Positions 11,733 to 44,330 of a stretch of DNA of 64,000 nucleotides are shown piece by piece (position 1 is the first letter of the stretch; every line of letters starts with the position of its first letter). The stretch is from Euglena gracilis (lineage: Eukaryota), in contig CP154954.1 in the NCBI GenBank assembly GCA_039621445.1, positions 3,415,715 to 3,479,714 of the forward strand, written 5' to 3'. Under the pieces are notes generated by a model. The model was given only the letters and a program-made list of their open reading frames with translations. It searched no databases and was not told the origin of the DNA. Made by a program: the position numbers and the translations under genes.

Positions 11733-11902
11733 CAGGGTTCCCGTTTTTTTGTTTTAAAACAAAGCAAAAAAACTTTCATGAAAAAAACGGTTTAAAAACG
11801 GTTTTTTGCTTTAAAAAGGGGTGTTATTTTTAAAGAAAACACCACAAATAGGGAAAAAAACCTGTTTTAAACAACGTGTTTAAAAACAGCCCGGGAACCC
11901 TG
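11733..11902. mobile_element. hAT-like MITE (duplicated copy of 728-898)
   Basis: Same TIR and the same CCAGTCTG TSD. Confidence 0.9.
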
Positions 11903-15502: not shown

Positions 15503-15575
15503 CGCCCCGTGGCATAGTGGTTGTGTGGTTAGCGTGTGACCGGTAGGTCGCGGGTTCGAATCCCGTTGGGGGGCA
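15503..15575 (+). ncRNA. tRNA-like element (copy of 8302-8374)
   Basis: Same sequence inside the duplication. Confidence 0.65.
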
Positions 15576-16324
15576 AATATGTGCTGTTCAACGAGAAAAA
15601 TGTCAGTAAAATTTGACTGGGCCAAAAGTTTGTTTACTTTATTGACGTTCGTTTATTGCACCCCCTCCTCAAAAGTATGAGTTTTAAGGACGGAAAATTT
15701 TGAGGTCTTTTGTAAAAAAAAGTTTTTTTCCATCAAAAATCACGCGTTTTTGGGTTTTTCTTTTATTTTTATTATTTTTTCAAAAAAAATTTGGTTTCCC
15801 CGAAAACGGTGAAAACGTTGTGCTGGGTGTGGAGGGGTGTCGACTTACCCCCCCCTTCCGGTTCTTCCGGCGCAGTTTTTTGGTGCTGCCAAGAAATATG
15901 TTGCAAATGTTCATCCACCCGCAAAATAAACGGCCGCGTCTTGCGCAGCACCAGGAAAAACAGAAGGCAGGGACGATTTCTTAATGTGACGCGACGAGTG
16001 GAGGGAGGCCGTGACTGCTTTTCGGAAGGAAGGCAATTTTTTTTTTGGTCCGGCCGGCTGGCAAGACAGACATTGGTCCGGCTTGACGGACGGCTGGCGA
16101 AAAAATGCTTTGTCCGGACGGACGGCTGGGCGTCCAGCATTGGTCAGGCTGAAGAGGTCCGGACGGCTCGGACGGACGGACGGCCAGCCGCCCCCCTGGG
16201 ACGCGGGTGGGACGCGGGGGGGGGGGACGCGGGGGGGGGACGCTGGGGAGACGCCATTTTTGGGACAATGAAATTAGGAATTTTATACGAGAATTTTTTT
16301 GCCAAATTAGGACTCTAACAAACA

Positions 16325-16432
16325 AATTAGGAATCACCAACCCCAAATTAGGAATCACCACCACAAATTAGGAATCACCCACACCAAATTAGGAATCACC
16401 AACCTCAAATTTGCCTGAAATTAGGAATCACC
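16325..16432. repeat. Minisatellite, ~19-22-bp unit with core CAAATTAGGAATCACC
   Basis: Core AAATTAGGAATCACC occurs about five times in tandem. Confidence 0.9.
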
Positions 16433-16950
16433 TCCTAAATTTGGCTGTCTCGAGAACAAATTTTTGGTTCCAAAGTGGGATGCGGGGGGGACGCGGGGGG
16501 GGGGGACGCGGGGGGGACGCGGGGGAGACACCCCCACAGGTCGTGGCCAGTTTTGGGCCACAGGTCGTGGCCAGTTTCAGGCCACGGGTGGTGGCCAGTT
16601 TGGGCTGGGCCATAGATGATGGCCAAAACCGTCACTTCACATATTCTGGTTCGTCTTCTTGTTTGTTTTGAAGTTGGTTGTTTTTTTGGCAAACACCACG
16701 GTAGTGAAAAAAAAGTTCTTCATTCCAACTTTTTGAGGGGGGGAACGCGTCCCCCCCCCCTCCTTCTCTGGAATAATATCTCCTGCGCTGGTCAGAACAA
16801 GTATTTGCGAGGTGCAGAACGTTTTCCATTTTCTTTCCTACGCAAGTTGCAGGAGGTTATTTTTCGGGATGGAAATTGCCACGGAAAATTTCCGGGACCT
16901 GATAGAAAATTACATAGTGAAATTTCCCCAGGGGCCGGAAACGCCCATTG

Positions 16951-17390
16951 CTATACTATACTATACTATACTATACTATACTATACTATACTATACTATA
17001 CTATACTATACTATACTATACTATACTATACTATACTATACTATACTATACGATACTATACTATACTGTACTACACTATACTATACTACACTATACTATA
17101 CTATACTATACTATACTATACTATACTATACTATACTATACTATACTATACTATACTATACTATACTATACTATACTATACTATACTATACTATACTATA
17201 CTATACTATACTATACTATACTATACTATACTATACTATAATATACTATACTATACTATACTATACTATACTATACTATACTATACTATACTATACTATA
17301 CTATACTATACTATACTATACTATACTATACTATACTATACTATACTATACTATACTATACTATACTATACTATACTATACTATACTATA
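16951..17390. repeat. (CTATA)n pentanucleotide microsatellite
   Basis: Direct reading; ~440 bp, almost perfect. Confidence 0.99.
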
Positions 17391-17637
17391 ATGGAGCCGT
17401 GTGGACGGACGGACGGACGGACGGACAGACGGACGGACGGCTAGAGAAAGTTCCTTTCACCTGGACGGACGGCTGGACAGGATGCATTTTGACTGGACGG
17501 ACGGACGGCCAGGTTGGTCTCAAAATCACGAAAGGTCTAGCGCAGGCAACCACGCTCGGTATTTCCTAATTGTGTATCAGAAAAGTGTTTCTCCCTGCGT
17601 TAGTCCAGTGTGTTCCCTGCGTTAGTCCCCCGGACAG

Positions 17638-17937
17638 AGGGCCAGCTTCGATCGGTACCATCTTCTGGCCGCGCGGGTTCGAGTCCCGATGAGCTAAACT
17701 CCGAGCCGGGAGTGCACGGGACTTGAACCAGCCATGGCATACGGCGCTGCCAGACGGGGTAAGGAATGGCCGCCGTACGGCGGGAAGTTTCGATGGCGCC
17801 GAGGTGGAAATCAGCAACCAGAGGCTCAACCCTGGCGTGCCTGATGGGTAAGGGCCGGTGAACCATCGGTTCACCGGCGGTTGCCTACCTGACGTGTCAC
17901 GATTAAACCATTGCGGCTTCGGCCGAGCAGTGACACC
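17638..17937 (+). other. Hairpin-rich region with a B box; possible SINE or retroelement leader RNA
   Basis: GGGTTCGAGTCCC T-arm/B box; stems GGCCAG/CTGGCC, CCGCCG-TA-CGGCGG, GCCGGTGAACC/GGTTCACCGGC, GTGTCAC/GTGACAC, and CGGC-TTCG-GCCG. Confidence 0.35.
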
Positions 17938-17987
17938 AAGGACAAGCAACCCCTATCAAGCACGCCATCGCCAAGCATCAGGAGCTG

Positions 17988-18285
17988 TGTCGGCCGCCGG
18001 CTTTCGCCGGCAGCCAAAAATTGCCAGAAAGCGCAAATTTCAAAGTCGCGGGTAACAGCCAACCAGTTAAAAAACCCCGCGACTTAAATTGGAAGCGGGT
18101 CAAACTAGTTTGCGCTTTCAAATTCGTCATTTTTCACAGAACTTGAGGGGTTTTCCCCAATATTTGGCAAGAAGGAATACTATTGTATTGAATTTGTCAA
18201 TTGGACTTTGATTTGAAGTGGCAAGTTGAGTTTCATTGTTGGTCATTAATCTATTGAAGTCATTGTCTTGAAGGAGCCTTTAACA
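17988..18285 (+). repeat. 5' LTR (end uncertain; candidate TGT...ACA end at 18285)
   Basis: 17988-18230 aligns by eye with 30629-30870, with many substitutions. No TGG-type tRNA PBS was seen after the candidate end. Confidence 0.75.
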
Positions 18286-18786
18286 CCACCGCCCACTCCT
18301 CTATACCACCGCCTTCGCCTCCATCACCTACCACTCCTTGCCCCAAGGTTTGCGCATTTCATACATTCACATTTCACAGTTTCGGTTTCAATTGTGTTCT
18401 CACTCAAGTTTCGGAGTTTCAGAAATCAAGTTTCTTTCAGTTTTTGACTTCAAGAGTTCAAGTTTCAGTGGGTTGGTTTTTGCCTACAAGTTGTGCGAGA
18501 GAGAAGTGAGATTTTCACACCAAATGGCAGATTTTTCGATTTTGAGCAAAATTTCGGAAACCGCAAAAAAAACGATCCTATGCACCGGCTGGGGTTGAGG
18601 AACCCACCTGGGTGAAAAAACGGTGGTTGACTTGAGCCCACCAACCCCCGGAGATAGCGCAGGCCCCACCCCGGAAACACCACCCCCCTGTCGGTGGTCC
18701 TCCCCACCGGCGAGGACCCCCCGGGGCCCTCGGCCCGAAGGGACTCGGCGGTCGCGGGGGCGACCGGCGGCCCGGGGGTGGCGGAC

Positions 18787-19070
18787 CCGGTGAACATGGT
18801 AGCAGAGGTTGGCTCACTGACTTCGTCAGTGAGGATTTTTCAGATCCGGTGAACATGGTTAGCAGAGGTTGGCTCACTGACTTCGTCAGTGAGTATTTTT
18901 CAGATCCGTTGAACATGGTAAGCAGAGGCAGTTTCACTGACTCTGTCAGTGAAAATTTTTCAGAAACGGTCAACACGGTCACAGAGGATTGTTCTGTTGG
19001 CTGTGCCAGCAGAATGGTACACGAGGGCAGTTTCACCAACCCAGTTGTCTGTGAATTTTCAGAAGAATAT
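18787..19070. repeat. ~60-bp tandem repeat in the element leader/gag region
   Basis: Unit CCGGTGAACATGGTTAGCAGAGGTTGGCTCACTGACTTCGTCAGTGAGGATTTTTCAGAT: three clear copies plus degenerate ones. Confidence 0.85.
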
Positions 19071-19363
19071 GCAGAAATCCGCATCCATTTTCAGGTCAAT
19101 CTGTCCGAGTTTCAGATTGTGGTGAAAATTTTCTGAGATCTGTGTCAGAAATCTATTTTCAGAACGAAAAGGAAACTGAGTTTTCTGCAGCCCAGTTTTC
19201 AGAATCTGTGGCATCATTGCAAATCGTGACGGAATCTGTGGCAGAAAACAATTTTCAGCCTGCAGAATTGTTATCGTCTTAAGAATTTTCAGAAACGACA
19301 CAGGAATCAGAATCTGATGCTGATTCGGGGAGGGGGTCAATTACATTCATAAGGCCCATCACG

Positions 19364-20910
19364 GTGGAAGGGCCAGAAAATTTACAGCTGGTTCCACTGC
19401 ACAGCAGTGACGAGGAACCAGACCCCCCAGCTTACGAAAGCGAAACAGAGGAAGAAAAACAGGCTGAAAACACAATAATTCAGGAAATGGTGATGCAAAG
19501 AATGAAAGCTGCTGGCATGTGGCCAGTAAATTTTTCAGGTTTTCAGCAAATTTCTGTGTCGTCACGAGACAGCAGCCCAGGGCCAGAACAAAAAATGTTG
19601 CGTTTAACAGCCCAGCCAGAACCATTGCTGTTAACACAGAGTTCAGAAACGCAGTCAGCACAGCCAGCTGCAGCCCAGCTGCAGGTTTTTCAGCCAGCCC
19701 AGCCGTTTTCGGCTGAGATGTCTGTCCCAGCCCGGATCCCTGGACAGGTTTTCACCCAGCCCAGCAGTTTTCGGCTGGGTCATCTGTCCCAGCAATCATG
19801 GGGCCAGCCCAGATGACTTCACAGGTTTTTCAGCCAGCCCAGCAGTTTTCGGCTGGGTCATCTGTTCCAGCAATCATGGGACCAGCCCAGAATCATGGGC
19901 AGGTTTTTCAGCCAGCGTTAACAGTGTCTTGAAACACAGGCCCAGCCCAGATTTTTCAGCCTATTCAGCCAGATTTTCCACAGACCCAGCCACAGAATTT
20001 ACAGCCAAACACCAGTTTTTCTGCAGAAACTGGGTCCGAAAACCCTGAAAATCAGCATGATGTGGAAATGGAATCGGGCTATGGCCAATCTGATGATGAT
20101 TGTAACAATTGGGGTGAAGAGATCAGTTGCAAAATTGAATGTTCACATGGCAGACTTTTGGTGCAGGAAGGAAAAAATCCTGAAAAAACGGCTGAAAATC
20201 TGGTGGGGGAGGCAGAAAACAGGCTAAATCGGGCATTGGCCATGTCACATGGGCAGACATTGAATCTGGTCAATGAGGCATTGGGCATGCATGATCAGCG
20301 AATGGCTGATCACATTGCCATGGTGAAACGTGACATTCAGGCTGAACTGAGTGCAACTGTGAACGACTTGCTTTTGCAGTTTCAGCAAAATGGTGAAATG
20401 GTGCAAAATCGGGCCCAATGCCAAAGGCATTTGTTGAGTGTGGAAATGGAACGGCAGTTTGCTGAAAAAGTTAAGAAAGTGGAGGATGGACTAAACTCGT
20501 TTTTTGAGGCCCAGGTTGAGGGGTTGAGAAAAAATGAGAGGGATTTTTCTCAGAAGCTGTCGATTTTGGAAAAATCTGTGGGGGAGATGCACGTGGTGGT
20601 GCAACAAGTGGGGGAGAAGGAAAAACAGCAGGAAATTGCTGTTAATCAGGTCAAATCTGCAGTCGGTGAGCTAAGCTCTGGTCTGGAGGGACGCTTTGGG
20701 ATCATTTTTCAGCAATGCAAAAGTTTGGGGGACACTGAGTGTGCCAAATTTCAGGCACAGGCTGAGAAATTGAAGGAATGTTCACAGTCCCTGGAGCGAG
20801 AGAGCAAAGCTCTGAATGATCGTTTGGGGAGGTTGGAGAATTTTCTGGGTCGGAAAGATTTTCCCATTGAAAAAGTCTGTGACCTGATTAACAAGAGCGA
20901 GGAAACAATT
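19364..20910 (+). pseudogene. gag-like region (Q/P-rich repeats then predicted coiled coil), interrupted
   Basis: ORFs 19364-19816 (QVFQPAQ repeats) and 20062-20943 (E/K/Q-rich heptad-like) lie between the LTR and pol. Assignment is positional only. Confidence 0.5.
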
Positions 20911-20911
20911 A

Positions 20912-21115
20912 CAGGAGGTCCTCGAAAAAATAAGGAGGGATGAGGCCCATGCCATCCTGGTGATCCCCAGGTGGCCGGGGCGGCGTTGGTACAGGGAGGC
21001 CAGGGGCTTGGCAGTGCGCCAAGTCACGTTCCCTCAGGGAACACGATTTTTCGGCAGAGGGGAGGAGTTGTGCCGGGGGACCAAATGGGCCATCACAGCC
21101 ATTTTGCTGTGTGGG
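20912..21115 (+). pseudogene. C-terminal half of a DIRS/Dam-type N6-adenine DNA methyltransferase domain
   Basis: QEVLEKIRRDEAHAILVIPRWPGRRWYREARGLAVRQVTFPQGTRFF...RGTKWAITAILL aligns with the complete domain at 28585-28985. The catalytic xPPW half is deleted at the junction with gag. Confidence 0.7.
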
Positions 21116-21277
21116 CACCCAGACCGGTGTACGCTGGGGGTGACACGAAGGGGGAGGGAGAAAAAATCCAGGTTCGGGACACATTTTTCAGGACCACCCC
21201 CAGGGACGGGGGGGGCCACAGGGGAGGTCAAGCCGGCACACCTGGAACAGGTGGGGAGAGCGGACCAGCCGAGACGG

Positions 21278-21750
21278 ATGCTGGACCTGTTCTGCGGGAC
21301 AGGTTCAGTAGGGACGTCTACCGCAGCCTGGGTTTCCAGGTTACGTCGGTGGACGTGAACCACAGGTGGCGGCCAGACATTTGTGTTGACGTGCTAAAAT
21401 AGAATTTTAAAAAACAGTTCCAGCCTGGGAATTTTGAGGCAGTGATGTGTGGGGTCCCCTGCACCGAATTCAGCCTGGCCCTGACCACCAGGGAACGGGA
21501 TTTAACATTGGCTGATAGGCTGGTGCTGCGGGCCTGGCTATCATCAGGTACCTCCGCCAACAGCGGTGGTGGCTGGAAAGCCCCCGGTACGGGTACCTGA
21601 GGACCCGCAGGTACATGGCAGGGATCCCACACGTGGACGTGGATTACTGCCGGTATGCAGACTGGGGCTACCAGAAGTCCGCCAGGGTATGGGGCAGCCC
21701 ACATGTCCTGGGTCTCCGGCCACGGGTGTGTGACGGCCGGACCCGCTCCA
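21278..21750 (+). pseudogene. C5-cytosine DNA methyltransferase (compact, virus-like family), with frameshifts and a stop
   Basis: Motif I MLDLFCGTGSV (21278), VTSVD, motif IV CGVPCTEFS (PC at 21457-21462), RDLTLADRLV, motif VI WWLESP, and VDYCRYADWGYQKSARVW (motif VIII region). Confidence 0.92.
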
Positions 21751-21914
21751 TCCTGGAAAGCCCAGGACCTGAGGGGAGACGAAAGGGACGGCACCCCTTG
21801 TCCGTGGCCACAGCACCGGCATCGGAGGCCCAGGCTGCTGTGTCTCCGGGGCCAGAGGGAGCCCAACGCGGTGTGCCCACGGTCCTGCTCCATGAGGTTG
21901 GGCAGGGTGCAAGG

Positions 21915-22200
21915 GAACGGCAGCTGCTGATGCGGGTGCAGACCAGGGGGCCAGACGGACAGTCCCACTTCATCAACGCCCTCATTGACACAGGGGCAGA
22001 GGTGAACCTGGTCCGAAGAGGCAAGCTACCCGGCTCATACCTCCTGCCTGCCCCCAAGCCCCTGTCTCTGGTGACCGCCAGTGGCGCCAAGATGGAAGGA
22101 GGGGAACGTGAGGCAACCCTAGACCTGGACCTCCGGCGGGAGGGGGGCCCGGGTCAGGGGGAGGATCCCTGTGGACGGCTTCAGCCTCCTTTTATTAGGA
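21915..22200 (+). pseudogene. pol: Retropepsin aspartic protease
   Basis: ALIDTGAEVNLVRRG...LVTASGAKM, in frame with the end of the C5-MTase (ORF 21615-22355). Confidence 0.9.
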
Positions 22201-22689
22201 TGACATCCACGTGGAGGCCATCATCGGCTTTCCGGAGGAATACCAGCTCGGGGTGTTTCCACACCTCGGGGCCCTGGCGGTCCTCCTTCGGGGGCATGAC
22301 ACGGAGGGTGGGCGAGTTCAGCCAGCAGCCCATAAAAAGGCATAAAAGCGAGTGAGATACCTGAAAACGGTGGAAAAAGTCAGAGCACTGCGGCTTGCTT
22401 TGCCCGCGGCAGCCCTTGGGGGAGGACAACGAGGAGCCTGAGTTGGAGGGAAAACCCCTGCGCGAGGATGAGGCAACCCAGGAGGCCGTAGTCAAGGAAC
22501 TCCTGCGGGCAGTCTGGGAGGTCAAGGCACGGGCAGCCCAAGGGGTCATCCTTATTCCCGAAGGGGAACAGGTGACCAGCCAGCGGGCGGAGGAGCTCCG
22601 GGCAGCCCTCAGGAGGTATTTTGAGGGGGAGGTTCTCCGAACCAGGATTTGGGGGGAAATAATCGTTCGGGGGCCCCTGGGGGAAGAGA

Positions 22690-24070
22690 AAATTGAATTA
22701 AAACCGTGATCTGTGGCAAAGAAACAGAGACCCATCCACCTGACCTGGGAGAGGCACAGAGCCTTGTGTGACCTGGCGGGTGAGTGGGTTCGTGACGAGA
22801 AGGTGGAGGAGGGGGTGCCAAGTGCCTGGAGCCGCCCCACGTTCGTGGCGGCCAAGAAACAGGGGAAGTGGCGTGGGGTTCTGGATTTCCGGGCATTAAA
22901 CGAGGCCACAGTGACGGATGCTTACTCCCTCCCCAGGATTGAGGACATCCTGGTGAACCAGGGACGGAGGTACCTGTTCTCCGTCCTTGTTTCTCAGGGA
23001 TGCCTTCCATCAGGTGCCCCTGCACGAAGGCTCACGCCCATCCAGCTGCTGCAGCACCTCCCGCGAGTCCAAGCAGTGGTGTGTGGTCGTGATGGGCCTG
23101 AAAAATGGAGTGGCCATTTTTCAGCGGGTAATCGACTACTCGCTGAGGGATGTGGCTGATGTCGACAACCAATACGTTGACGACGTCATCGTGGGGACAT
23201 AGTCGTGTGGCACGGAGGAAGCTACCATGGAGGCACACGACCAAGACATCAGGCGAGTGTTACGGGCACTGCGGGAACACCGCCTGGTCGTGGACAAGAA
23301 CAAGTGCCGCTTCTTCGTAAGAGAACTGGAGTTCTGTGGCCACATCCTGGGGGGAGGAAAACGGAGGCCAGCACCGGGCAAAGTCATGGCGCTGGATAAG
23401 TTGGAGGAGCCCCGCACGATCACAGCCCTCAGGGGCTTTCTAGGCTTCACCAACTACTACTCCAGCTACGTGAAGGAGTATGCCCATTATGCATCCTCCC
23501 TGATGGACCTCCTCAAGGTGGGACGAGTGGAGTGGAAAAAGGGGAGCAAAAAACCTGTGAAATTCCGCCAAGTGGAACGGGAGGCCTTCACCGCCATGAA
23601 GCAGGAGCTCCTCCGGGGATTGAAGCTCCACACCATCAACCCGGACCAGCCATTCATTCTCCGGGTGGATGCGAGCGACAAGGCGGTGGGGGCAGCCTTG
23701 GAACAGTTTTTGGAGCCAACAGAGGGGATGCACACAGCCATGGAAGCCACTACACGGAAAACCGTGCCTGTGGCCTTCTGCTCCAGGAAAATCCCGGCTG
23801 GACAGGTGAAGAGCTGGTCTCCGCGAGAGAAAGAGACCTACGCCGTCATCCTTGCCCTCCAAAATGGGCCTCCTACATCGGCCTGCAGCCGGCGTTGGGT
23901 CCTCACGGACCACAAGTCCCTGGTGGCCTGCACCAAGGAAACCCTGGACACGCCCAGCGGACCTGCCGGGAGGCGGGGACGCTGACATGAAATGTTCTCA
24001 CGGTTTGAACTTCACGTGGTCTATATCCCGGGAAAGGAAAATGTGGTGGCGGATGCCCTCAGCAGATGGG
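22690..24070 (+). pseudogene. pol: Ty3/Gypsy reverse transcriptase and RNase H, frameshifted
   Basis: WSRPTFVAAKK, KWRGVLDFRALN, YSLPRIEDIL, LRDAFHQV, VMGLKNG, YVDD (23173-23184), KCRFFVRELEFCGH, LRGFLGFTNYY; RNase H: RVDASDKAVGAALEQ, SPREKETYAV, LTDHKSL, ENVVADALSR. Confidence 0.96.
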
Positions 24071-24730
24071 CATATCCTGCCTCCAAGGCTTTTGCCGACA
24101 TCAGCCTCCACGGGAGCGGGGAGGATGATGAAGCAATGAGGGCCATGATCGAAGACGAACGGAGGGAAGAGCCGGAATGCGAGACACCGCACGGGGGGGG
24201 AGGAACTCCACGTGGCGGTAACAAAAAGCAGTGGGGGAGACACAGCAGCACAGCACGGACCTGGCCCCAGCCCCACAGAGGGGGAGAGGGCTGAGGATTC
24301 AGTGCCAGGGAGCCCTGACCCTGACCCCACAGGGGGGGAGGGGCCTGTGGACGCCCCCTTGGGAGATTCGGGTCCCATCCTCACGGGAGGGGAGGGGGTT
24401 GGGGTACCTGGGTTTGACACGCGGGTGACACGGGGTCCCCCTCGTGCCCATCTTTTCATGGATGAATTCGGGAATGAACAGCCGGCAAGAGGGGGGGAAC
24501 CTGAGGAACATCAACCGGGGGGAAGAGTTCTGAGTGAGGACCTTCAGCGGACCCCAACATCAACGATCCCCACGGAGGTGATCTTGGGGAACCTGAGGGG
24601 GAACCGATTTCATTTTCTCCAGACACGGGGGTGCACACCCAGGAAGAGGTGGATGAGGATCCCTCCATCCCAGTGATGGACAGGGATTGGTCACGGGCAT
24701 ATTAAAATTGCCCTGTGTGGCGGCCTGTTT

Positions 24731-25860
24731 ATGCAAATGCCTGCAGGAGAGTGGCCTGAGGGAGTCCGTCTGTACGAGGACAAAATGTACACGGACGGGA
24801 TCCTCTTTGTGCCAACCAGCCTGATGGGGCTCGTGGTCCGTGCCCACCACGGGGACGCAGGCCACCCAGGAGCCTCCAGGCTCTGGCACCAGATGGGGCG
24901 GTGGTACAGGTTCGCGGATCCAAGGGGGGCTGAGAAAATCACCCAAGGCATCCAGCGGCAATGTGAAATCTGCCAAGCCTGTGACCACTCTCGAGCACCT
25001 TTCAAGTGTGCTCTCGAAGCCACCCCTGTGCCACCGTTCCTCATGGACAGTGTGGCAGTGGACCTGTTCGACATGCCTGAGGTGACCCACGAGAGCCGAG
25101 TGTATGATTACCTGGCCCTGTGCGTGGACCGTGAGAGTGGGTGGACAGTGGCCACCCCCCACAAGTACAAGGGCCTGACAGCTGAGGTGGTGGCCAAGGC
25201 CATGTTCCGCTACTAGGGCATGTTCGGGGTGCCCTCTGTGTGACCTCGGACCGTGGCCCCCATTTTGCTTCGGCTTGGAGGCAAACAATGTGCGTCGCCA
25301 TGGGGGTGAGGCGTGCCTACGGGCAAGCCGACCACCACCAGGCCAACGGTCGGGCATAGGTGGCAGGCCAACGGGCGATGAACACCCTGTCCAAGCTCAT
25401 CGCTGACCTGTCGGAGAAGGAGGCCTCATGGGTGGTGCTGTTACCCAAGGCCCTCCGGCACCTGCACGATGTGCCAGGCTTGTCGCCCTACGAGGCGGTT
25501 TTCGGGCGGCACCGGCCACTCCAAGGCCTGCACCACCGGCCACCACGAGAGGCCGAGGTGGCAGCCGACTTCATGGCACGGATGCGGGCTATGGACGAGG
25601 AGGTGGCCTCAACCTTGAGTGCCTTGCACGCCAAACGGTGGGCTTCCATCAACGCCAAGAGAAGGGATCCACTTCCTCTGGAGGTCGGTGCCAAGGTGTG
25701 GTACCGTCCCGAGTCACAGCCGGGAACGGACAAGTTGGCCACCAAGTGGAAAAGGGGGACTGTGGTGGCCCGCCAGTGTCTACACTCATGTGTGGTGGAG
25801 CTGCCCCCGGGGGCCCGCCAAGAGACACACCGGAGCCAACTGAAGCTCTACGCAGAAGAC
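24731..25860 (+). pseudogene. pol: Integrase (HHCC zinc finger, DDE core), with stops
   Basis: AHHGDAGHPG...CEICQAC; SVAVDLF; TSDRGPHF; HHQANGR; GLSPYEAVFGR; VGAKVWY...HRSQLKLY. Confidence 0.93.
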
Positions 25861-25929
25861 GAGTTCTCCACCGAACCCTCCCAAAGTTCTATTTCAATCA
25901 CAAGGCGGCCACCCTGGAGGTGGGACCGG

Positions 25930-26110
25930 ATGAGTGGGTGGTGGAGGACATTGTGGGCAGCCGGAACCACCCGGAAACGGGGCTGCCGGAAATTCAGGTG
26001 AGGTGGAAAAATTGGGATCCGACGGATCTCCAATGGCTGCCATGGTCGGATTTCTTCCCATCCTACAACGAGGATGTGGTGGATTATTGTGCAGCCAAGG
26101 GGATTCCATT
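25930..26110 (+). pseudogene. Chromodomain at the integrase C-terminus
   Basis: EWVVEDIVGSRNHPETGLPEIQVRWKNWDPTDLQWLPWSDF fits the chromodomain pattern (aromatic-V-E-x-I...V-x-W-K-x-aromatic...W-x-P). Confidence 0.88.
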
Positions 26111-27699
26111 GGAGGTGGTGGGACTTCTCCGCCACGGGAGGAAAGGGGCGCGGGGTCGAAGGCAATAGGGGGAGGGTTTGAGGTGGATGCGGGAGGAAGT
26201 TGGGTGCGGGGACTGTGGTGGTGGCGGAGCACCCCTACGTCCCAGGCCCTGATTCTGATTTTATTTGTGCCTTGGCAGGTTCAACTTCAATTTCAAAATT
26301 CAGATTTCAAACTCCTGCGACCGCCCCTTGGCTACGGGCGTGGGGCCGGTGGCCCCAGAAGCCGGGGGCCTGGTGTCCCCCTCGGAAGGGAACATGATGC
26401 CCGGGCGGGGCGAGGAGGCCACACGAGTGCACGGGGGGGGTCCCATCCCCAAGGGCCCCTGAGGGTGCCAACATCCTCCCCCCCCAGGGCTGGCCTCCCC
26501 CAACACCCGCGGCCACAGAGCGCCCCCCGGCACCCACTCCCCGCACGTGCTCAACACCGCACGGTGCGGCCCGAGGGGCCCCGGGGGGGGTCCACAGGGG
26601 GCCCTGCGGGCCCGAGCCCCCCCCCACGGGTGCCTGCCGGGTTTTTTTTTTTTCTTTTTGAGCCATTCAAGGCGTGGTGCCCTGGCCAAAGGGGGGGGGG
26701 TGCCTGGGGCGGGGGGGCGGTGCACCTGCTATTTTGTTCAATGTTTGATGGTTGGCCACACCCCTCTTCGGCCCACCGTGCCGAGGGAGGGGGGGGGGCG
26801 CCTGCAATTTTCTTTTTTGGTTGCACCCCCCTCCCCGAAGGAGGGGGGGGGGGCGCCTGCCGTTTTTTTTTTGGTCTCCACCCCCCCTCGGGGGGGGGGG
26901 GGGGGCGATTTTAAAAACACCCCCGGCCAAGCTAACCCCCGGGGGGGGGGGCAGGAACCCCCACACGGAGCCAGGGGGGGGGGGCAGCCCCCAAGGGGGG
27001 GGGGGGGCGCCACCCCCTCGGGGGGGGGGGCAGCCCCTCACCGGCCCCCTCACGGGGGGGGCCCCACCTCAAGGCCCCCCGGCGGCGCCCCCCGGCGCCC
27101 CCGGGCGGGGCCCCACCCCGGGGGCTGGGCCGGGCAAGGGGCGGGCCTTCCAAATGCACAAACTGCCACCCCGGGCCAAGCGGGGGGGGTGGGGGAAGGA
27201 ATCACAATTACACCCGAGCATCGAGCGTTTCGGGGGGGGGGCGCCCCTACCCATGGGCCAAGAGGGCTCACGGGATCGGAAGGAGAGCGGAGGGGCCCCA
27301 AGCGGCGCCTCCCCGGGTCACGGGTCTGGAGGCGCCCGTTCCTCCTTCTCGCCCCTCCCGTGTATCCCCCTCCCCAAACGGCGCGCGCCACACACGGCAC
27401 GTGGCATCACCGCTTCGTGCGTTTCCACACAAAAAAATATAATTCTTTGGAGGCGGGAGAGCGAAAAGGGGAGGGGCGGCACCTCGGACCGGCAAAGGAG
27501 TCGAACTTAAATTGCACGGCAATTTTTTTGAGGAGGGGAGTGTGCGCGGTCCGAGGGCGCCCGCCCGAAGGGGGGGTCCCAAGTGGGCCCAAAGGGGCCA
27601 CGAAGGGCCGCAAGGGGGCTCCAAGGCCCCCACGGACCTTTTGAGACCCCACTGGCCCCCAAGGGGGCCCGACAGCGCATTTTGACCAAGCCAAGGGAA

Positions 27700-28560
27700 G
27701 GTAAAGGAGGAGGCAGGTTGAGAGGGCCAACAGGCAACCCCCAAGGGGATGCGCAGGCCCTGCTGGGCTTTGCGGAAGCAGCCCAGCTTATGATATATAT
27801 ATCATAGCTTATATATATATCATGATACACAGTTCCAGGGAGTCAAATGCATTTGGAAACCGGAGGGCCAGGTCTGCTAAGGCAGATCGGGCCAAGGCGT
27901 CCAGGACATCCTCCCAAACACGGTCAGCAAAGGGGGGCGAAACGGTGGCAAAACCGTCCGTTCGAAAATCAGATTCACAGGTGACAGCTCCTGCTACCAA
28001 CGCAAACGTGAACCCCCCCGTGCAAAATCAAGTGCCAGTGGTTCGATCACAGTCATTGCCACCCCCCCCAGCAAACTCAATTTGGCAATGGGGGTGAATG
28101 GAGAAATGATTCTGGGTGGAATTCAAATGCCAGCACCAATTTTCAGGGAGATCAGTGGTGGCACTGAAATCAACAGAATTTTGATTCACAGTCTTGTGAT
28201 GGCGAAGGCAAAGGCAAAGGCAAAGGCAAGGGCAAAGGAAACAATTCTTGGAGGAAAGGAAATAATGGAAATGACTGGTCTAGGGGAAAGGGCCAGGATG
28301 GTGGAAAAGGCAAAGGAAAAGGAAGGGGGAAAGGAAACCGATGCTAGGACAGCCGGGGTGGACCGTTGGGAGCGAGAGCCGCCCCGGGCTCGCATACCCA
28401 GCCCCACACAAAGACATAAGCAAATCCTAGGTGGCATGAGAAATCTCGTGCGAGTGAAAACACGATGAAAAATCTTCCATCCCGGGAGATCTCTGCGCAA
28501 GGTGTGTCCAGTGTGTCGTGTGTGTGTCTGCGTGACGTGCAAATCTGTGATCCAGCCCAA
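27700..28560 (+). pseudogene. gag-like C-terminal region (GKGKG-rich) of the second element
   Basis: A broken frame reads GEGKGKGKGKGKGNNSWRKG...GKGQDGGKGKGKGRGKG and lies upstream of the second MTase/PR block. Confidence 0.45.
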
Positions 28561-28584
28561 ATCTCTCCTGGAAGGGTTGCCTTC

Positions 28585-28985
28585 TATCAACCAACAAGGC
28601 CCACACCCCCCAACGGGTACCCCTCAAAATCCTCCCATCAGCCTCAAACAACTTTGTCCCCTTGGGAAAATAAACCTTTTTGACAGCCATAGCCACCAGA
28701 CTTTTCACCCACCTCCTATTCCTATTCCAGCTGGGAACAATGCACATGCAAATCGCACCGACAATTGGAAAATTTGTGCCCAATTTTTCAGACAACTTCA
28801 GGCAACAAAGTCCAGGGGGGGATCATCCACAACCGTCTTCCTCCACCCCACCAAATCCTTTACATGGCATCATCATCCTCCCGTAAAACTTTCGCACCTG
28901 GCATTTTGCTGTTGCAAAACAATCCAAAAAAAGTTGCCTTTGCAAAACAATACCGTTCCGCCTCTTTAACCCGATAATCCTTCTC
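28585..28985 (-). pseudogene. DIRS/Dam-type N6-adenine DNA methyltransferase domain (complete, frameshifted, on an inverted segment)
   Basis: Read across frameshifts: KDYRVKEAER / LFLDCFATAK-CQVRKFY / DDAM*RIWW...LWMIPPWTLLPEVV*KI / AICMCIVPSW...WVKSL...YFPKGTKLFE...RGTRWGVWALLVD. This is the DxFA...D...W...(N)PPW...P-x-W pattern. Confidence 0.82.
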
Positions 28986-29084
28986 AATTTCCTCCATACA
29001 AACTTTCCTAACAGCATAATCCTCCCTACGATATCCGCTTTTTCCGCCAGACACTTCCGTTCCAAAAAAACACCGGTTAACAAA

Positions 29085-29485
29085 TACTCCACCAGTTGTT
29101 TGGGCATCCTCCATTTTTTCTGAGTACCAACTGTCATTCCATATCCTCCCAACTTTTCTCGGTGACTCCTCCCCACAGAAATCAAATTCGGGCAAGTCTG
29201 GCCATCACAAAGTTTGTTTTGTAGCTTGCTCAGACTTTCGCTCCCCCAGATTCAGGTAGGCTTTTGATATCCCCAATCTGAAAACTGACAATAGTCAACA
29301 TCGACAAAAGTCAGATTTTGAACACAGGGTCTTTTCCGCAAAAGTCCATGCCGGGGATTTTCAACCCACCACCATTTTGGCTTGAAATATTCGACAATCT
29401 CCAAAGTTTTTTTGACCAGCCGATCTGCCCGCTCCAAATTTCTTACTCCCAATGTTTTGGCCAAGCTATATTCGGGAGGGGGCAG
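29085..29485 (-). pseudogene. C5-cytosine DNA methyltransferase, second diverged copy (motifs IV-X; motif I lost)
   Basis: PPEYSLAKTLGVRNLERADRLVKKTLEIVEYFKPKWWWVENPRHGLLRKR...VDVDYCQFSDWGYQKPT*IWGS...LCDGQTC...HREKLGG...KWRMPKQLVEYLL. Confidence 0.9.
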
Positions 29486-29574
29486 CCCCAGGGAAGAAAA
29501 AAATTGGTGCGGCTTAAAAAAAGAATGTTGAGGGGGACAAAAACTCGGGGAGGATCGAAGAAACTCGGGGAGGA

Positions 29575-29870
29575 CAGACAACTTCTGTTAAAAACCCAGA
29601 TTAAGTTGGCAAATGGGGAGGAAAAAAACGGCCAGAATTTTGATTGATACGGGGGCTGAAGGAAACCTCATTCGACAAGGGTTGATAGGGGACCACCTAA
29701 TGTATCCTGCTGAGGACCCGTTAAGGTTTGAAAATGCCAATGGGCAAATTTTGGCGGGGGGGAGCAGATGTGCAAAGGTAAAAATGACCCTTCAACAAAA
29801 TTGGAATGAGGAAAGGGAAATTGAGAGGGTTGAATATGAGGTTGAATTTTATGAGGCACCACAGTATATT
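29575..29870 (+). pseudogene. pol: Aspartic protease of the second element (pol truncated after it)
   Basis: RQLLLKTQIKLANGEEK / ARILIDTGAEGNLIRQG...FENANGQIL, homologous to RQLLMRVQTRGPDG...ALIDTGAEVNLVRRG at 21915. Confidence 0.88.
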
Positions 29871-30077
29871 CGCTGCCCGTTTGTTATATTGCCGTTCGCT
29901 GTCCCTCTTCCCATCCCTTCCCTCTCCATACCCCTCGCATTACGGTCACGCGGTGGTGTTATAAGGGTTCCTTCTCAAATCATTCGGATGTGTGCATGAT
30001 GATGGATTACACTGTGCATGGTAGTCCTTGGTCACAATATGAGCCCTCACACGGTTGGTTAAGGGGACGGAGTTTTG

Positions 30078-30345
30078 GACAAAAAACCCCCCGGCCCAAG
30101 GAGGGGGGGGGGGCGCCTTGATTTTTTTGGACAAAAAAACCCCCCGGCCCGAGGAGGGGGGGGGCGCTTGAATTTTTTGATAAAAATCCCCCGGCCTGAG
30201 GAGGGGGGGGGGCGCTTGATTTTTTTGGCAAAAATCACCCCGGCCCGAGGGAGGGGGGGGGCTTGACGAATTTGAACCAAAAATCTCCCCGACCCGAAGG
30301 GGGGCGCCAACCGAATTTTTACCAAAAAATCTCCCGACCCGTTGG
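30078..30345. repeat. ~42-bp tandem repeat in the element 3' region
   Basis: Unit approximately AAAAA-CCCCCGGCCCGAGGAGGGGGGGGGCGCTTGA-TTTTTT, 5-6 copies. Confidence 0.85.
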
Positions 30346-30617
30346 AAGGGGGGGATCTTGGTGAAGACCCTCATACCACCCGTGAGAAGCGGGGGGGGGG
30401 TGGCAGCTAATATTCATTGGTTGGTGAACCAAGTCTTTCCCAAAGGTTTGAAGGCACTTGAAAGCCATAGTCCATGAAGTTTGTTTCCCATTTGTTTATT
30501 CAAGGGAGAATGGGTGTGGGACATAGGCTTTGGATTAAAGAGTTCCGAATGGAGGATTTCCCCCCCGTTGTTGAGGAACGGGGGGGGGGCGAGTTTTTGG
30601 GGTCCGACTAAGGTCGC

Positions 30618-30628
30618 AAGGGAGGGGG
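30618..30628 (+). promoter_or_regulatory. Polypurine tract
   Basis: AAGGGAGGGGG abuts the TG start of the 3' LTR. Confidence 0.8.
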
Positions 30629-30870
30629 TGTCGGCCGCCGGCTTTCGCCGGCAGCCAAAAATTGCCAGAATGCGCAAATTACAAAGTCGCGGGTAACAGC
30701 CAATCAGTTAGGGAAACCCGGACTTAAATTGGAAGCGGGTCAAATTTCTAAGCGCCTTCGAATTTGTCTTTTTTCACAGACCTTGTGGGGTTTTCCCCAA
30801 TATTTGGCAAGAATGAATACTTTGAATTTGAATTTGGCAATTGGACTTTGAATTGGAGTTGCAAGCTGAA
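30629..30870 (+). repeat. 3' LTR, truncated by the LINE fragment
   Basis: Diverged direct repeat of 17988-18230. Confidence 0.85.
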
Positions 30871-31750
30871 CGCGGCGGTAGGATTGGATGGCGCTGTCCA
30901 GGGCGGAGCGTCGGGAGGCAGACGCTGCGGAGATGGCGCTGCGGAGGGCAGGGACGGTCGTGCGGGGGAGATGGACACCGCGGGCGGCGAGGTAATCCAG
31001 CAAGCGGACCCATGGCCAGGGCCATGGGACGGTGGAGGGCGGGCGGGCATTCAGGCGCTCCAGCCGGTGCAGCTCGGCGAGCGTGCCACGAAGATGCACC
31101 ACCTTCACGGACTCGTAGGCAGGCCAGCGGTGGGGAGCACGTCTGCTTCGACCTCGCCTTACGCGAACTCTCCCACTCCCTCGACATGCAGGTACCCACA
31201 CTGCTGCTGGGGGACTGGAACGGCTCCGTGCCGCCCTCCCGGGATTACAGCAGTCGCAGCGGTCGCCAGCGTACCCCCTGCCCCCTGCTGGCCCACCTCT
31301 CGGGTCCCCGAGCCCCGTGGACTAATGCCCATGCAGCCCTCCTTCCCGAGCCCCTCCCGATGACCTTCCACTCCCCGCAGCTGTCTGGCCAGGTGGCTGC
31401 CACCTGGATCGACCTCATCGTGGCCAACAACGCCGCCCTGCCTCTCCTCCGCGGCGCCTCCGTGGAGTCGGACTTCCGCGACGGTGGTCACTCACCGTGC
31501 TTCGTCTCTCTGTCCTTCTCCGCCAGACACCTGGACTAGCGTCACCCCGTGGACAGCCCACCGCCCCGTCCTTTGCGGCCCCTCCGCCGACCTCCTGCAG
31601 TGCTCCGCGTGGAACGAGATCCTGACTTCCTGGGAAGCCTCGCCGGAGGTGGCCGCCCTGTCCCCCAACCGCGACTACACGCTTGAGTCCCTCTCCGCCG
31701 CCCTGCACGCGCCCATGCAGCGTCTGGTTAGTCTGGCCGACGGCTGGACG
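30871..31750 (+). pseudogene. LINE fragment: APE endonuclease C-terminal part (31140-31750, +) and an apparently inverted continuation (30871-31140, -)
   Basis: LLLGDWNGSV...MTFHS...TWIDLIVAN...DGGHSPCFVSL match the APE GDxN, TF, RIDY-like and SDH-like motifs. The minus strand reads HRWPAYES...LAELHRLERL with the same GC-rich codon style. Confidence 0.75.
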
Positions 31751-33338: not shown

Positions 33339-33339
33339 G

Positions 33340-43954: not shown

Positions 43955-44330
<376 letters not shown>

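What the first reader, a model, noticed from the sequence alone, without database searches (positions are those of the whole stretch)
20912..26110. Gypsy chromovirus pol preceded by two DNA methyltransferases (6mA-type and 5mC-type)
Seen: once frameshifts are bridged, the plus strand reads N6-adenine MTase (C-half), C5-cytosine MTase (FxGxG, PC, ExP, QKxxR), PR, RT, RH, IN, chromodomain. The N6 remnant runs in frame into motif I, and the C5 end runs in frame into the protease. Known: C5-MTase capture by retrotransposons was reported in dinoflagellates and charophytes (de Mendoza et al. 2018), and the Dam-like MT domain is typical of DIRS elements rather than Gypsy. Inference: this family carried two DNA-mark writers plus a chromatin reader, and may have methylated its own cDNA or insertion site. 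I do not know of this combination in an integrase-type LTR element, but I could not search for it.
Basis: partly seen in the sequence, partly recalled or inferred. Interest (0 to 1): 0.93.

Follow-up and report, generated by a model that had tools for sequence, protein, structure and literature searches.

The report
Dead retrotransposon with two DNA methyltransferases
This is a broken, 5'-truncated copy of a Gypsy-type retrotransposon whose family really does encode an adenine and a cytosine DNA methyltransferase plus a chromodomain, a design first reported in a May 2026 preprint.

Summary
On the + strand, 20906-26051 reads as the C-terminal 42% of a Dam-like N6-adenine MTase, a short C5-DNMT, PR, RT, RNase H, integrase and a chromodomain. 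It is a dead copy. It is cut off at 20910/20911, has six frame changes and nine in-frame stops, and has lost the DNMT C-terminus.

The architecture belongs to the family and is not a nested insertion. Uninterrupted ORFs of 1763-2008 aa from other sources carry PF05869 + PF00145 + RVT_1 + RNase H + rve + Chromo. Catalytic residues are kept: NPP[FYW] in 40 of 43 Dam domains, the PC cysteine in 165 of 169 DNMT domains. AlphaFold models fold as C5-DNMT and as an adenine-N6 MTase.

The combination is no longer undescribed. A bioRxiv preprint of 22 May 2026 (10.64898/2026.05.21.726589) names such elements "EpiLTRs" in Euglena gracilis and Cymbomonas. I could not name the window's host.

I did not find three things in that preprint's main text:
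- All six orders of PR, Dam and DNMT occur upstream of RT.
- Dam-less sister elements exist.
- The DNMT's nearest relatives are about 205-aa stand-alone DNMTs on virus-like contigs.

That the element methylates its own cDNA remains inference.

The parts
19933..20910 (+). Coiled-coil-like 336-aa open frame (it runs on to 20943). It belongs to a different high-copy repeat and is not shown to be this element's gag.
   Evidence: GC is 0.46 here against 0.62 to the right. In run X1, 19 contigs, and one contig of the RNA-library run X20, match up to 20910 and then continue with other sequence (table 7). There is no homolog among 80 related loci, and only one marginal hit among 210 related proteins (P0011, 28% identity, E 0.006). 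Pfam gives no significant family.
20906..21124 (+). Dam-like N6-adenine MTase, C-terminal remnant only. The NPPY motif and the N-half are absent.
   Evidence: Family HMM positions 99-171 of 172, E 1e-27. 45% identity to P0001 residues 327-497; where P0001 has NPPY the window has a stop and unrelated residues.
21275..21812 (+). Short C5-cytosine DNMT. Motifs I, IV (PC), VI (ESP) and VIII (QKxxR) are present. It is broken by two frame changes and one stop, and the C-terminal motif region is deleted.
   Evidence: Four pieces match DNMT HMM positions 2-18, 15-43, 46-88 and 89-180 of 229. Alignment to P0001 shows a 27-residue gap. Frames are given.
21915..22172 (+). Aspartic protease (DTGA), in the same frame as the end of the DNMT.
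   Evidence: Pfam RVP E 0.01. tblastn to P0013 residues 461-525 at 54% and to P0001.
22590..23450 (+). Reverse transcriptase, with a frame change near 22988.
   Evidence: RVT_1 E 2.4e-11, 44.2 bits against a cut-off of 29.6. tblastn to P0004 at 63%.
23569..23940 (+). RNase H (the RT-linked Ty3/Gypsy type).
   Evidence: RT_RNaseH_2 E 1e-13 and RT_RNaseH E 1.1e-13.
24689..25878 (+). Integrase: H2C2 zinc domain (24809-24982) and DDE core, with one frame change and two stops.
   Evidence: Integrase_H2C2 E 5.1e-4. tblastn to P0029 and P0100 at 40-49%. No rve hit from Pfam on the split pieces.
25935..26051 (+). Chromodomain at the C-terminus of pol.
   Evidence: PF00385 E 1.3e-3, below the gathering score. 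tblastn to the chromodomain ends of P0024, P0033 and P0100.
28586..29515 (-). Second, unrelated fragment of the same superfamily in the other module order (DNMT then Dam). It lacks DNMT motif I and an intact Dam N-half.
   Evidence: DNMT HMM positions 51-138 (E 1e-39) and 140-203, Dam HMM positions 112-167. A single tblastn segment to P0013 residues 126-452 at 41%. Its Dam part is only 26% identical to that of element 1.
29637..29858 (+). Protease fragment, head-to-head with the minus-strand DNMT-Dam fragment.
   Evidence: tblastn to P0013 residues 482-555 at 57%. Pfam gag-asp_proteas E 0.005.
17987..18229 (+). 243-bp direct repeat, whose partner lies at 30628-30869 (88.5% identity). It brackets both fragments. 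It is not shown to be an LTR.
   Evidence: It is the only direct repeat found between 15001-20911 and 26101-31500.

Best explanation
The stretch 20911-26135 is a dead, 5'-truncated copy of a Ty3/Gypsy chromovirus-type retrotransposon. Its family encodes two SAM-dependent methyltransferase modules at the front of pol, next to the protease. One is a Dam-like (PF05869) adenine-N6 MTase. The other is a minimal C5-cytosine DNMT of about 200 aa, in which four conserved residues (Cys, Cys, Cys, His) sit where other C5-MTases have a large target-recognition domain. PR, RT, RNase H, integrase and a chromodomain follow. This is the kind of element named EpiLTR in a 2026 preprint.

Shown:
- the domain content of the window copy and its decay;
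- the same architecture in intact ORFs from other sources;
- conserved catalytic residues;
- MTase folds in the predicted structures.

Inferred, for intact family members only:
- The MTases are translated as part of pol, released by PR and packaged with RT. There they would meet the newly made cDNA or the RNA:DNA hybrid, so a new copy would arrive already carrying 5mC and/or 6mA.
- The chromodomain steers integration towards marked chromatin.

The window copy itself can do none of this.
For: Window anatomy.

Family architecture in uninterrupted ORFs:
- P0001 (891 aa) reads Dam(NPPY)-DNMT-PR.
- Of 23 relatives of 496-1472 aa, Pfam finds DNA_methylase in 14, RVT_1 in 13 and Dam in 9.
- P0024, P0027 and P0028 carry Dam + DNMT + RVT_1 + RNase H + H2C2 + rve + Chromo at E 1e-5 to 1e-26. 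P0025 carries the same set with a weaker DNMT match (E 8e-4). P0028's H2C2 match is weak (E 4e-4).
- These proteins come from ENA, JGI, Logan and NCBI sources.

Size of the family: 4791 representative proteins at E<=1e-3, 231 at E<=1e-30.

Conserved residues: NPP[FYW] in 40 of 43 Dam domains that cover the motif; catalytic Cys in 165 of 169 DNMT domains; Glu of ENP in 166 of 167; the four putative metal ligands in 162/164, 141/144, 143/144 and 132/136.

Folds:
- DNMT model, pLDDT 94.8. The top Foldseek matches are DNMT3B, DNMT1, M.HaeIII and M.HhaI at E about 1e-7, probability 1.00.
- Dam model, pLDDT 91.4. The top matches are the cap adenosine-N6 MTase PCIF1 (E 6e-5, TM 0.61), then KsgA/Erm adenine MTases.
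- The DNMT profile matches DNMT1 in PDB sequences at E 1e-3. All but one of the 34 matches at E<=1 are named C5 methyltransferases.

Copies in real genomes: 8943, 10524 and 3929 contigs from three DNA runs of one coded organism lie on 19900-26200 at 90-100% identity. At or next to four of the window's frame changes, between about a quarter and nearly all of that depth, depending on the run and the place, differs in length by one base.

Prior description of the kind: preprint sections 7-9.
Against: - No methylation activity was measured here. The preprint reports no 6mA gain when eukaryotic DAMs were expressed in dam-deficient E. coli.
- The Dam domain scores close to Pfam's cut-off in several proteins (27 bits against 28.1 in P0001 and P0025), and its profile matches no PDB sequence at E<=10.
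- Its best structural match writes m6Am on RNA, not 6mA on DNA.
- No LTR pair flanks the window copy, and none could be examined in homologs. So 'LTR element' rests on pol architecture alone.
- The window's chromodomain and PR hits fall below Pfam's gathering scores.
- The motif counts come from proteins that were selected by similarity to P0001/P0002, so they are not an unbiased sample.
- No dN/dS was computed.
Confidence: 0.8

Rival explanations
1. The MTase remnants are independent insertions (for example a DIRS fragment plus a DNMT-bearing element) that landed in front of an ordinary chromovirus, or the whole arrangement is an assembly chimera. On this reading the family itself has no MTases.
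For: The window is a mosaic of nested and rearranged repeats. The element abuts a different repeat at 20910. A second fragment nearby is inverted. The preprint itself warns of nested insertions and assembly artefacts in Euglena.
Against: Dam, DNMT, PR and RT lie in single uninterrupted ORFs in many independent contigs from four sources. In the window, the Dam remnant runs in frame into DNMT motif I, and the DNMT runs in frame into PR. P0085, 64-66% identical to the window, reads straight through the Dam-DNMT junction.
Confidence: 0.03
2. The architecture is real, but the Dam-like module does not write 6mA on DNA. It methylates RNA or the RNA strand of the replication hybrid, or it is a non-catalytic nucleic-acid-binding or scaffold module. 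Only the DNMT marks DNA.
For: The closest solved fold is PCIF1/CAPAM, an RNA cap m6Am writer, followed by rRNA adenine MTases. The preprint found no 6mA from eukaryotic DAMs in E. coli and itself suggests a hybrid substrate. Dam was gained or lost at least twice, and by parsimony five times, on the DNMT tree, so it is dispensable.
Against: The NPP[FYW] catalytic motif is kept in 40 of 43 domains. The Pfam family matched is a phage DNA Dam. The preprint reports more 6mA on DAM-LTR insertions than on other LTR elements in three species.
Confidence: 0.25
3. The MTases act on the host rather than on the element's own cDNA. For example they might mark the insertion neighbourhood, or protect against a host or viral restriction-like nuclease, in the way phage orphan methylases do.
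For: The DNMT's nearest relatives are stand-alone DNMTs of about 205 aa that match phage DNA-methyltransferase families on virus-like contigs. The Dam family is phage-derived. P0031 has a weak RE_HindVP match between PR and RT.
Against: No restriction partner or target was identified. The RE match is a single hit at E 9e-4. Placement inside pol next to PR and RT fits action inside the particle at least as well.
Confidence: 0.1

Closest known systems
EpiLTRs of Euglena gracilis and Cymbomonas tetramitiformis (Fernandez-Moreno et al., bioRxiv 10.64898/2026.05.21.726589, 22 May 2026; sections 5-11 read, figures and supplements not seen)
   Same: Ty3/Gypsy-like LTR retrotransposons whose pol combines a eukaryotic Dam-like domain, a C5-DNMT and a chromodomain. 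In both, only the C-terminal catalytic half of prokaryotic Dam is present, with a conserved Asn-Pro-Pro triplet.
   Different: In Cymbomonas the DNMT sits at the 3' end of pol. Here both MTases lie upstream of RT, around PR. The main text does not give the Euglena order, so identity with the Euglena lineage can be neither shown nor excluded. The preprint places its DNMTs as sister to DNMT4, which I could not test. I did not find the six module orders, the Dam-less sister elements or the stand-alone virus-like DNMT relatives in its main text.
KnitGypsy-Dnmt3 of Klebsormidium nitens (de Mendoza et al. 2018, PMC5890265, section 9 read)
   Same: A Gypsy-type pol with a captured C5-DNMT that keeps its key residues.
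   Different: That DNMT belongs to the Dnmt3 clade, and no Dam domain is reported. Here the DNMT is a minimal enzyme of about 200 aa with a Cys3-His motif, and it is often paired with Dam.
SymbioDIRS-Dnmt3 and SymbioLINE-Dnmt of Symbiodinium (PMC5890265, sections 6-7 read)
   Same: Retrotransposon-borne DNMTs under purifying selection, for which self-methylation of cDNA was proposed. Two different domain orders coexist in the DIRS forms.
   Different: Those are tyrosine-recombinase (DIRS) or LINE elements. They have no DDE integrase, no chromodomain and no Dam beside the DNMT.
DIRS-type retrotransposons with a Dam-like MT domain
   Same: The same Pfam family (PF05869) is embedded in a pol polyprotein. 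The preprint derives the LTR-borne Dam domains from DIRS.
   Different: DIRS elements use a tyrosine recombinase. Here an H2C2 + rve integrase and a chromodomain are present, and Pfam reported no tyrosine recombinase in the 5 full-length proteins scanned.
Stand-alone DNMTs of about 205 aa on virus-like metagenome contigs (loci L009-L080; phrog_757 and phrog_2882)
   Same: 36-47% identity over the whole DNMT module, with the same Cys3-His pattern and the same motif order.
   Different: They are free-standing genes in dense, low-GC (0.33-0.38 in three of five examined) gene arrays with no retroelement domains. One branch with SH-aLRT 100 separates them from all TE-borne copies.

Membership tests
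Ty3/Gypsy chromovirus-type LTR retrotransposon | pol order PR-RT-RNase H-integrase (DDE, with H2C2 zinc domain) | tested here: met
   Window. Homologs P0024, P0025, P0027, P0028, P0031 and locus L008.
Ty3/Gypsy chromovirus-type LTR retrotransposon | Chromodomain at the C-terminus of integrase | tested here: met
   Above Pfam's cut-off in all 5 full-length homologs scanned, two of them marginally (35.3, 35.4 and 37.5 bits in P0024, P0027 and P0028; 25.4 and 25.6 in P0025 and P0031; cut-off 25.1). The window copy is weak (19 bits, E 1.3e-3).
Ty3/Gypsy chromovirus-type LTR retrotransposon | Flanking long terminal repeats with target-site duplication | tested here: not met
   No direct-repeat pair brackets 20911-26170, and the copy is 5'-truncated. 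The homolog contigs in hand are too short: L008 and L003 show none. For the family this remains untested.
Ty3/Gypsy chromovirus-type LTR retrotransposon | RT branches within Ty3/Gypsy in a phylogeny with reference elements | not testable with these tools
   No Repbase or GyDB reference sequences were available. Only the Pfam domain types (RT_RNaseH_2, SH3_Tf2-1) point that way.
EpiLTR (DAM + DNMT + chromodomain LTR retrotransposon) | Dam-like domain, C5-DNMT and chromodomain encoded by one retrotransposon pol | tested here: met
   P0024, P0025, P0027 and P0028. The window copy holds remnants of all three.
EpiLTR (DAM + DNMT + chromodomain LTR retrotransposon) | DNMT in the clade shared by the Euglena and Cymbomonas EpiLTRs, sister to DNMT4 | not testable with these tools
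   The sequences sit in the preprint's supplements, which are closed. No DNMT4 references were in hand.
PF05869 Dam-type N6-adenine MTase | Catalytic (D/N)PP(Y/F/W) motif | tested here: met
   Family: 40 of 43 domains. The window copy has lost it.
PF05869 Dam-type N6-adenine MTase | Profile match at Pfam's curated threshold | tested here: inconclusive
   Above the cut-off in P0024 (33.5), P0027 (44.2) and P0028 (45.3). Just below it in P0001 and P0025 (27.0 against 28.1). 9 of 23 relatives match at E<=1e-3.
PF05869 Dam-type N6-adenine MTase | 6mA transfer to DNA | not testable with these tools
   The preprint reports a negative E. coli assay for other eukaryotic DAMs.
C5-cytosine DNA methyltransferase (PF00145) | Motifs I (FxGxG), IV (PC), VI (ENV-like) and VIII (QxRxR-like) in canonical order | tested here: met
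   Column counts over 176 domains, alignment A3. In the window copy these are FCGTGS, VPC, ESP and QKSAR.
C5-cytosine DNA methyltransferase (PF00145) | C5-MTase fold | tested here: met
   Model pLDDT 94.8. Foldseek places DNMT3B, DNMT1, M.HaeIII and M.HhaI on top with probability 1.00.
C5-cytosine DNA methyltransferase (PF00145) | Full-size target-recognition domain and motifs IX-X as in M.HhaI or DNMT1 | tested here: not met
   The whole module is about 200 aa. Pfam aligns only profile positions 2-118 of 324. A conserved Cys3-His stretch replaces the TRD.
DIRS retrotransposon | Tyrosine recombinase instead of a DDE integrase | tested here: not met
   H2C2 + rve integrase in the window and in homologs. 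Pfam reported no Phage_integrase match in the 5 full-length proteins.

The most novel reading that the evidence does not exclude
The window's element belongs to a third EpiLTR lineage that is separate from the two in the preprint. This would be a large, environmentally widespread clade of chromoviruses built around a minimal virus-type DNMT (Cys3-His in place of a TRD) that was exchanged once with DNA viruses or phages. Within the clade, a DIRS-type Dam module has been gained and lost repeatedly, and PR, Dam and DNMT have been shuffled into all six possible orders. That would make the MTases free-standing cassettes released by the protease, not fixed parts of a polyprotein.
Probability: 0.35. 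Interest if true: 0.65.

Novelty: new member of a known kind. Interest (0 to 1): 0.45.

Why it matters
Retrotransposons that carry their own writers for two different DNA marks, plus a chromatin reader, show that mobile elements can bring an epigenetic toolkit with them and need not simply suffer host silencing. The concept is now in print as a preprint, so this window adds a member, not a principle.

This analysis adds three leads:
- A large set of intact, environmentally abundant relatives that could be expressed and assayed.
- Evidence that the MTase modules behave as movable cassettes around the protease.
- A concrete candidate source, or sink, for the DNMT among small viral methylases.

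If activity on cDNA or RNA:DNA hybrids were shown, it would give a direct test of the self-methylation hypothesis first raised in 2018.

Tried and rejected
- Whole-genome copy collection: no genome is held for this window.
- Host identification led nowhere. Rfam found nothing in 64 kb. Ten other long ORFs gave only one weak RVT_1 hit. Sequencing-run organisms are coded. Cluster look-ups gave no names of use. Earlier findings of this scan held nothing.
- LTR search by exact seeds, TRF and two self-blastn runs found no pair around the element. Contigs L008 and L003 were too short to show LTRs.
- Pfam on the raw window ORFs missed the Dam remnant and almost missed the DNMT (E 0.37). Only homolog-derived HMMs recovered them.
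- The PDB sequence search with the Dam profile gave nothing at E<=10.
- The ESM Atlas gave only sub-threshold leads, 0.84-0.85, to phage DNMT clusters.
- I considered the upstream 336-aa ORF as gag and rejected it. No CCHC knuckle occurs in 13 long homologs.
- Neighbours of the stand-alone DNMTs were mostly without any family. There was one phage-type DNA primase, and weak Phage_int_SAM_1, nSTAND3 and Gly_rich_2 hits. 'Virus-like' therefore stays a loose label.
- RNA evidence: 33 contigs of one leaf-litter metatranscriptome run lie on the stretch at 90-99%. This does not show that the window copy is transcribed, and I draw no habitat from it.
- dN/dS was not attempted. The DNA loci in hand are only 30-58% identical in protein to the homologs they were compared with.

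Full report
WHAT IS IN THE WINDOW

Stop-to-stop frames on the + strand and tblastn with intact relatives give one colinear reading from about 20825 to 26135, in this order:
- Dam-like remnant
- C5-DNMT
- aspartic protease
- RT
- RNase H
- integrase (H2C2 zinc domain and core)
- chromodomain

Pfam on the raw frames sees RNase H (E 1e-13), RVT_1 (E 2.4e-11), Integrase_H2C2 (E 5e-4), RVP (E 0.01) and Chromo (E 1.3e-3, below the gathering score). It sees DNA_methylase only at E 0.37 and does not see Dam at all.

HMMs that I built from homologs recover both MTases.
- The frame 20888-21355 matches Dam positions 99-171 of 172, E 1e-27.
- Four frames match DNMT positions 2-180 of 229.

The Dam remnant and DNMT motif I share ORF 20888-21358. 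The DNMT C-part and the PR DTGA share ORF 21519-22355.

THE COPY IS DEAD AND TRUNCATED

The reading frames run 2>1>3>1>2>1>3, with nine in-frame stops. Where P0001 has NPPY, the window has a stop and unrelated residues, and nothing upstream resembles the Dam N-half. A 27-residue stretch of the DNMT C-terminus is missing, and DNMT HMM positions 181-229 have no match.

GC jumps from 0.46 to 0.62 at 20910/20911. In public DNA runs, 19 contigs of one run match the left side up to 20910 and then continue with different sequence. So does one contig of an RNA-library run (table 7).

The 336-aa ORF to the left has no relative among 80 related loci. Among 210 related proteins it has only one marginal hit, P0011 at E 0.006. 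I therefore read 20910/20911 as a junction between two different repeats. I do not read the upstream ORF as this element's gag.

No direct-repeat pair brackets the element. The only pair is a 243-bp repeat at 17987-18229 and 30628-30869, at 88.5% identity.

IS THE ARCHITECTURE A PROPERTY OF THE FAMILY?

Yes.
- A search with the Dam/motif-I frame found P0001 (891 aa). It reads Dam (NPPY) - DNMT - PR without interruption.
- Searching with P0001 residues 290-700 gave 23 proteins of 496-1472 aa and 11 of 1756-2232 aa, from ENA, JGI, Logan and NCBI sources.
- Of the 23, Pfam finds DNA_methylase in 14, RVT_1 in 13, Dam in 9 and the RNase H domains in 8-9.
- P0024, P0025, P0027 and P0028 each carry Dam, DNMT, RVT_1, RNase H, H2C2, rve and Chromo in one ORF. 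The H2C2 match is weak in P0028.
- An exhaustive HMMER search with P0002 found 4791 representative proteins at E<=1e-3 and 231 at E<=1e-30.
- One cluster (P0026) has 158 members at 90% identity or more.
- The closest protein to the window, P0085 (64-66% identity), reads through the Dam-DNMT junction in one frame.

The same family is abundant in real genomes. 8943, 10524 and 3929 contigs from three DNA runs of one coded organism lie on 19900-26200 at 90-100% identity. At or next to four of the window's frame changes, between about a quarter and nearly all of that depth, depending on the run and the place, differs in length by one base. Copies without those particular breaks therefore exist.

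ARE THE TWO MODULES REALLY METHYLTRANSFERASES?

Among the 210 proteins in hand, my HMMs find 50 Dam and 176 DNMT domains.

Residue conservation:

| Feature | Kept in |
|---|---|
| Dam NPP[FYW] | 40 of 43 domains that cover it |
| DNMT catalytic Cys (motif IV) | 165 of 169 |
| Glu of ENP | 166 of 167 |
| First Gly of motif I | 143 of 144 |
| Three further Cys and one His, where other C5-MTases have a TRD | 162/164, 141/144, 143/144, 132/136 |

I infer that the last four form a metal site. This is not tested. These proteins were picked by similarity to the query, so the counts are not from an unbiased sample.

Predicted structures:
- The DNMT model (P0066 with 32 relatives) has pLDDT 94.8. Its best Foldseek matches are DNMT3B, DNMT1, M.HaeIII, DIM2 and M.HhaI at E about 1e-7.
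- The Dam model (P0144 with 23 relatives) has pLDDT 91.4. Its best matches are the cap-specific adenosine-N6 MTase PCIF1 (E 6e-5, TM 0.61), then KsgA/Erm adenine MTases.

PDB sequence searches:
- The DNMT profile reaches DNMT1 at E 1e-3.
- The Dam profile reaches nothing at E<=10.

WHAT I DID NOT FIND IN THE LITERATURE READ

(a) Module order is not fixed. With HMMs for Dam and DNMT and blastp for PR and RT, all six orders of PR, Dam and DNMT occur upstream of RT. Each PR has a single D[TS]G[AS] motif.

| Order | Examples |
|---|---|
| Dam-DNMT-PR | P0001, P0004, and the window |
| PR-Dam-DNMT | P0024, P0007 |
| DNMT-Dam-PR | P0027, P0013 |
| DNMT-PR-Dam | P0025, P0040 |
| Dam-PR-DNMT | P0038, P0105 |
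| PR-DNMT-Dam | P0006, P0037 |

(b) Full-length sister elements carry the DNMT but no Dam. Examples are P0029-P0034, P0100 and locus L008. I took 30 proteins that start with Met and reach RT. On the DNMT tree, Dam presence among them needs five changes by parsimony, and strongly supported branches force at least two.

(c) A metagenome scan confirmed 277 of 325 candidate loci and kept 80. Of those 80, 74 match P0024 only in its DNMT part, at 35-52% identity (36-47% in all but a few short contigs).
- In the five long loci I examined, the gene is a free-standing ORF of 204-219 aa in a dense gene array. GC is 0.33-0.38 in three of the five.
- Two of these ORFs match phage DNA-methyltransferase families phrog_757 and phrog_2882. 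One neighbour is a phage-type primase. Most neighbours match nothing.
- I built a tree of 131 DNMT domains. A first grouping by ORF length needed two changes. I then moved L049 to the stand-alone group, because it has a 344-aa frame but no TE domain. After that, one branch with SH-aLRT 100 separates 62 TE-borne from 69 stand-alone sequences.
- The tree is unrooted, so the direction of transfer is open.

THE SECOND FRAGMENT

On the minus strand, 29515-28586 reads DNMT then Dam. This is a single tblastn segment to P0013 residues 126-452 at 41% (HMM matches). It lies head-to-head with a + strand PR fragment at 29637-29858, which is 57% identical to P0013. Its Dam part is only 26% identical to that of element 1. 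The host genome therefore holds at least two subfamilies with different module orders, here within 8 kb of each other.

COMPARISON WITH WHAT IS KNOWN

de Mendoza et al. 2018 (PMC5890265; sections 6, 7 and 9 read):
- DNMTs occur in Symbiodinium LINE and DIRS elements, and a Dnmt3 occurs in a Klebsormidium Gypsy element.
- Dam-like domains were then known only in DIRS.

Fernandez-Moreno et al., bioRxiv 10.64898/2026.05.21.726589 (sections 5-11 read; figures and supplements not available to me):
- Dam domains occur in five LTR lineages.
- 'EpiLTRs' with DAM + DNMT + chromodomain occur in Cymbomonas (DNMT at the 3' end of pol) and in Euglena gracilis ('structurally distinct'; the order is not stated in the text).
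- The EpiLTR DNMTs form one clade, sister to DNMT4.
- Eukaryotic DAMs keep the Asn-Pro-Pro triplet but gave no 6mA in E. coli.

A full-text search for EpiLTR / DAM-LTR finds only this preprint. A five-term search on Gypsy, adenine methyltransferase, cytosine methyltransferase, retrotransposon and chromodomain listed it first.

The kind is therefore known. The window's element is not the Cymbomonas form. Whether it is the Euglena form I cannot tell. The window has moderate CpG depletion (observed/expected 0.62) and a repeat mosaic. Both would suit the preprint's description of Euglena, but they would suit many other hosts too.

MECHANISM

Shown: the domain content, the conserved catalytic residues and the folds.

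Inferred: in intact members the two MTases are made as part of pol beside PR. PR would release them, and they would travel with RT. They would then meet the cDNA or the RNA:DNA hybrid and mark it before or at integration. The chromodomain would bias where integration happens. That chromoviral chromodomains do this is recalled knowledge, and the preprint's discussion also cites it.

The main uncertainty is the substrate of the Dam module. Its best structural neighbour is an RNA m6Am writer, and the published heterologous assay was negative.

VERDICT

- I file the element as a new, dead member of a known kind.
- The module shuffling, the Dam-less sisters and the virus-like DNMT relatives are leads worth following.

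Noticed in passing
window 28586-29858: A second MTase-bearing retroelement fragment with the opposite module order (DNMT then Dam) lies on the minus strand. It is joined head-to-head to a + strand protease fragment. It looks like an inversion or a foldback rearrangement.
   Followed up: partly
window 19933-20943: An intact 336-aa coiled-coil-like ORF with no Pfam family and no relative in the MTase-element family. It belongs to another high-copy repeat. One 514-nt contig of an RNA-library run matches it with 15 differences.
   Followed up: partly
window 17987-18229 and 30628-30869: A 243-bp direct repeat pair (88.5% identity), 12.64 kb apart, brackets both MTase-element fragments. Whether these are LTRs of a larger host element or a dispersed short repeat is open.
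   Followed up: partly
window 26787-26905 and 30048-30310: Related G-run-rich units of about 48-50 bp (runs of 9-13 G) follow both the chromodomain end of element 1 and the protease fragment of locus 2. This may be a shared 3' region of these elements.
   Followed up: no
window 16951-17390, 9009-9277, 43948-44328: (CTATA)n arrays, 88 units in the first. Related copies lie elsewhere in the window in both orientations.
   Followed up: no
window 1-2257 / 11010-13260; 5520-7310 / 15060-13258; 7860-8998 / 15060-16195: Large near-identical duplications (96.5-98%), one of them inverted, in the left quarter of the window.
   Followed up: no
window 33008-33922 (-) and 30832-31539 (+): Other retroelement debris. 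One frame gives a weak RVT_1 match (E 8e-4). Another frame looks to me like a LINE endonuclease fragment, which I did not test.
   Followed up: no
loci L009-L080, e.g. L065:9998-10612, L029:9998-10627: Free-standing DNMTs of about 205 aa with the same Cys3-His pattern as the retroelement DNMT. They sit on gene-dense metagenome contigs, with GC 0.33-0.38 in three of the five examined, and match phage DNA-methyltransferase families. Most neighbouring ORFs match nothing.
   Followed up: partly
P0031 residues 608-715: A weak match to the HindVP restriction endonuclease family (E 8.7e-4) between PR and RT of a Dam-less DNMT chromovirus. It may be chance.
   Followed up: no
L008:2-2878: A 958-aa ORF, open at its 5' end, with no Pfam family, lies directly upstream of a PR / DNMT-RT-RH-IN-Chromo element. 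It is a candidate gag-like protein of the family.
   Followed up: partly
P0026 cluster: 158 member sequences at 90% identity or more, including 2323-aa forms. This suggests a young, recently active DNMT-bearing subfamily in some sampled organism.
   Followed up: no
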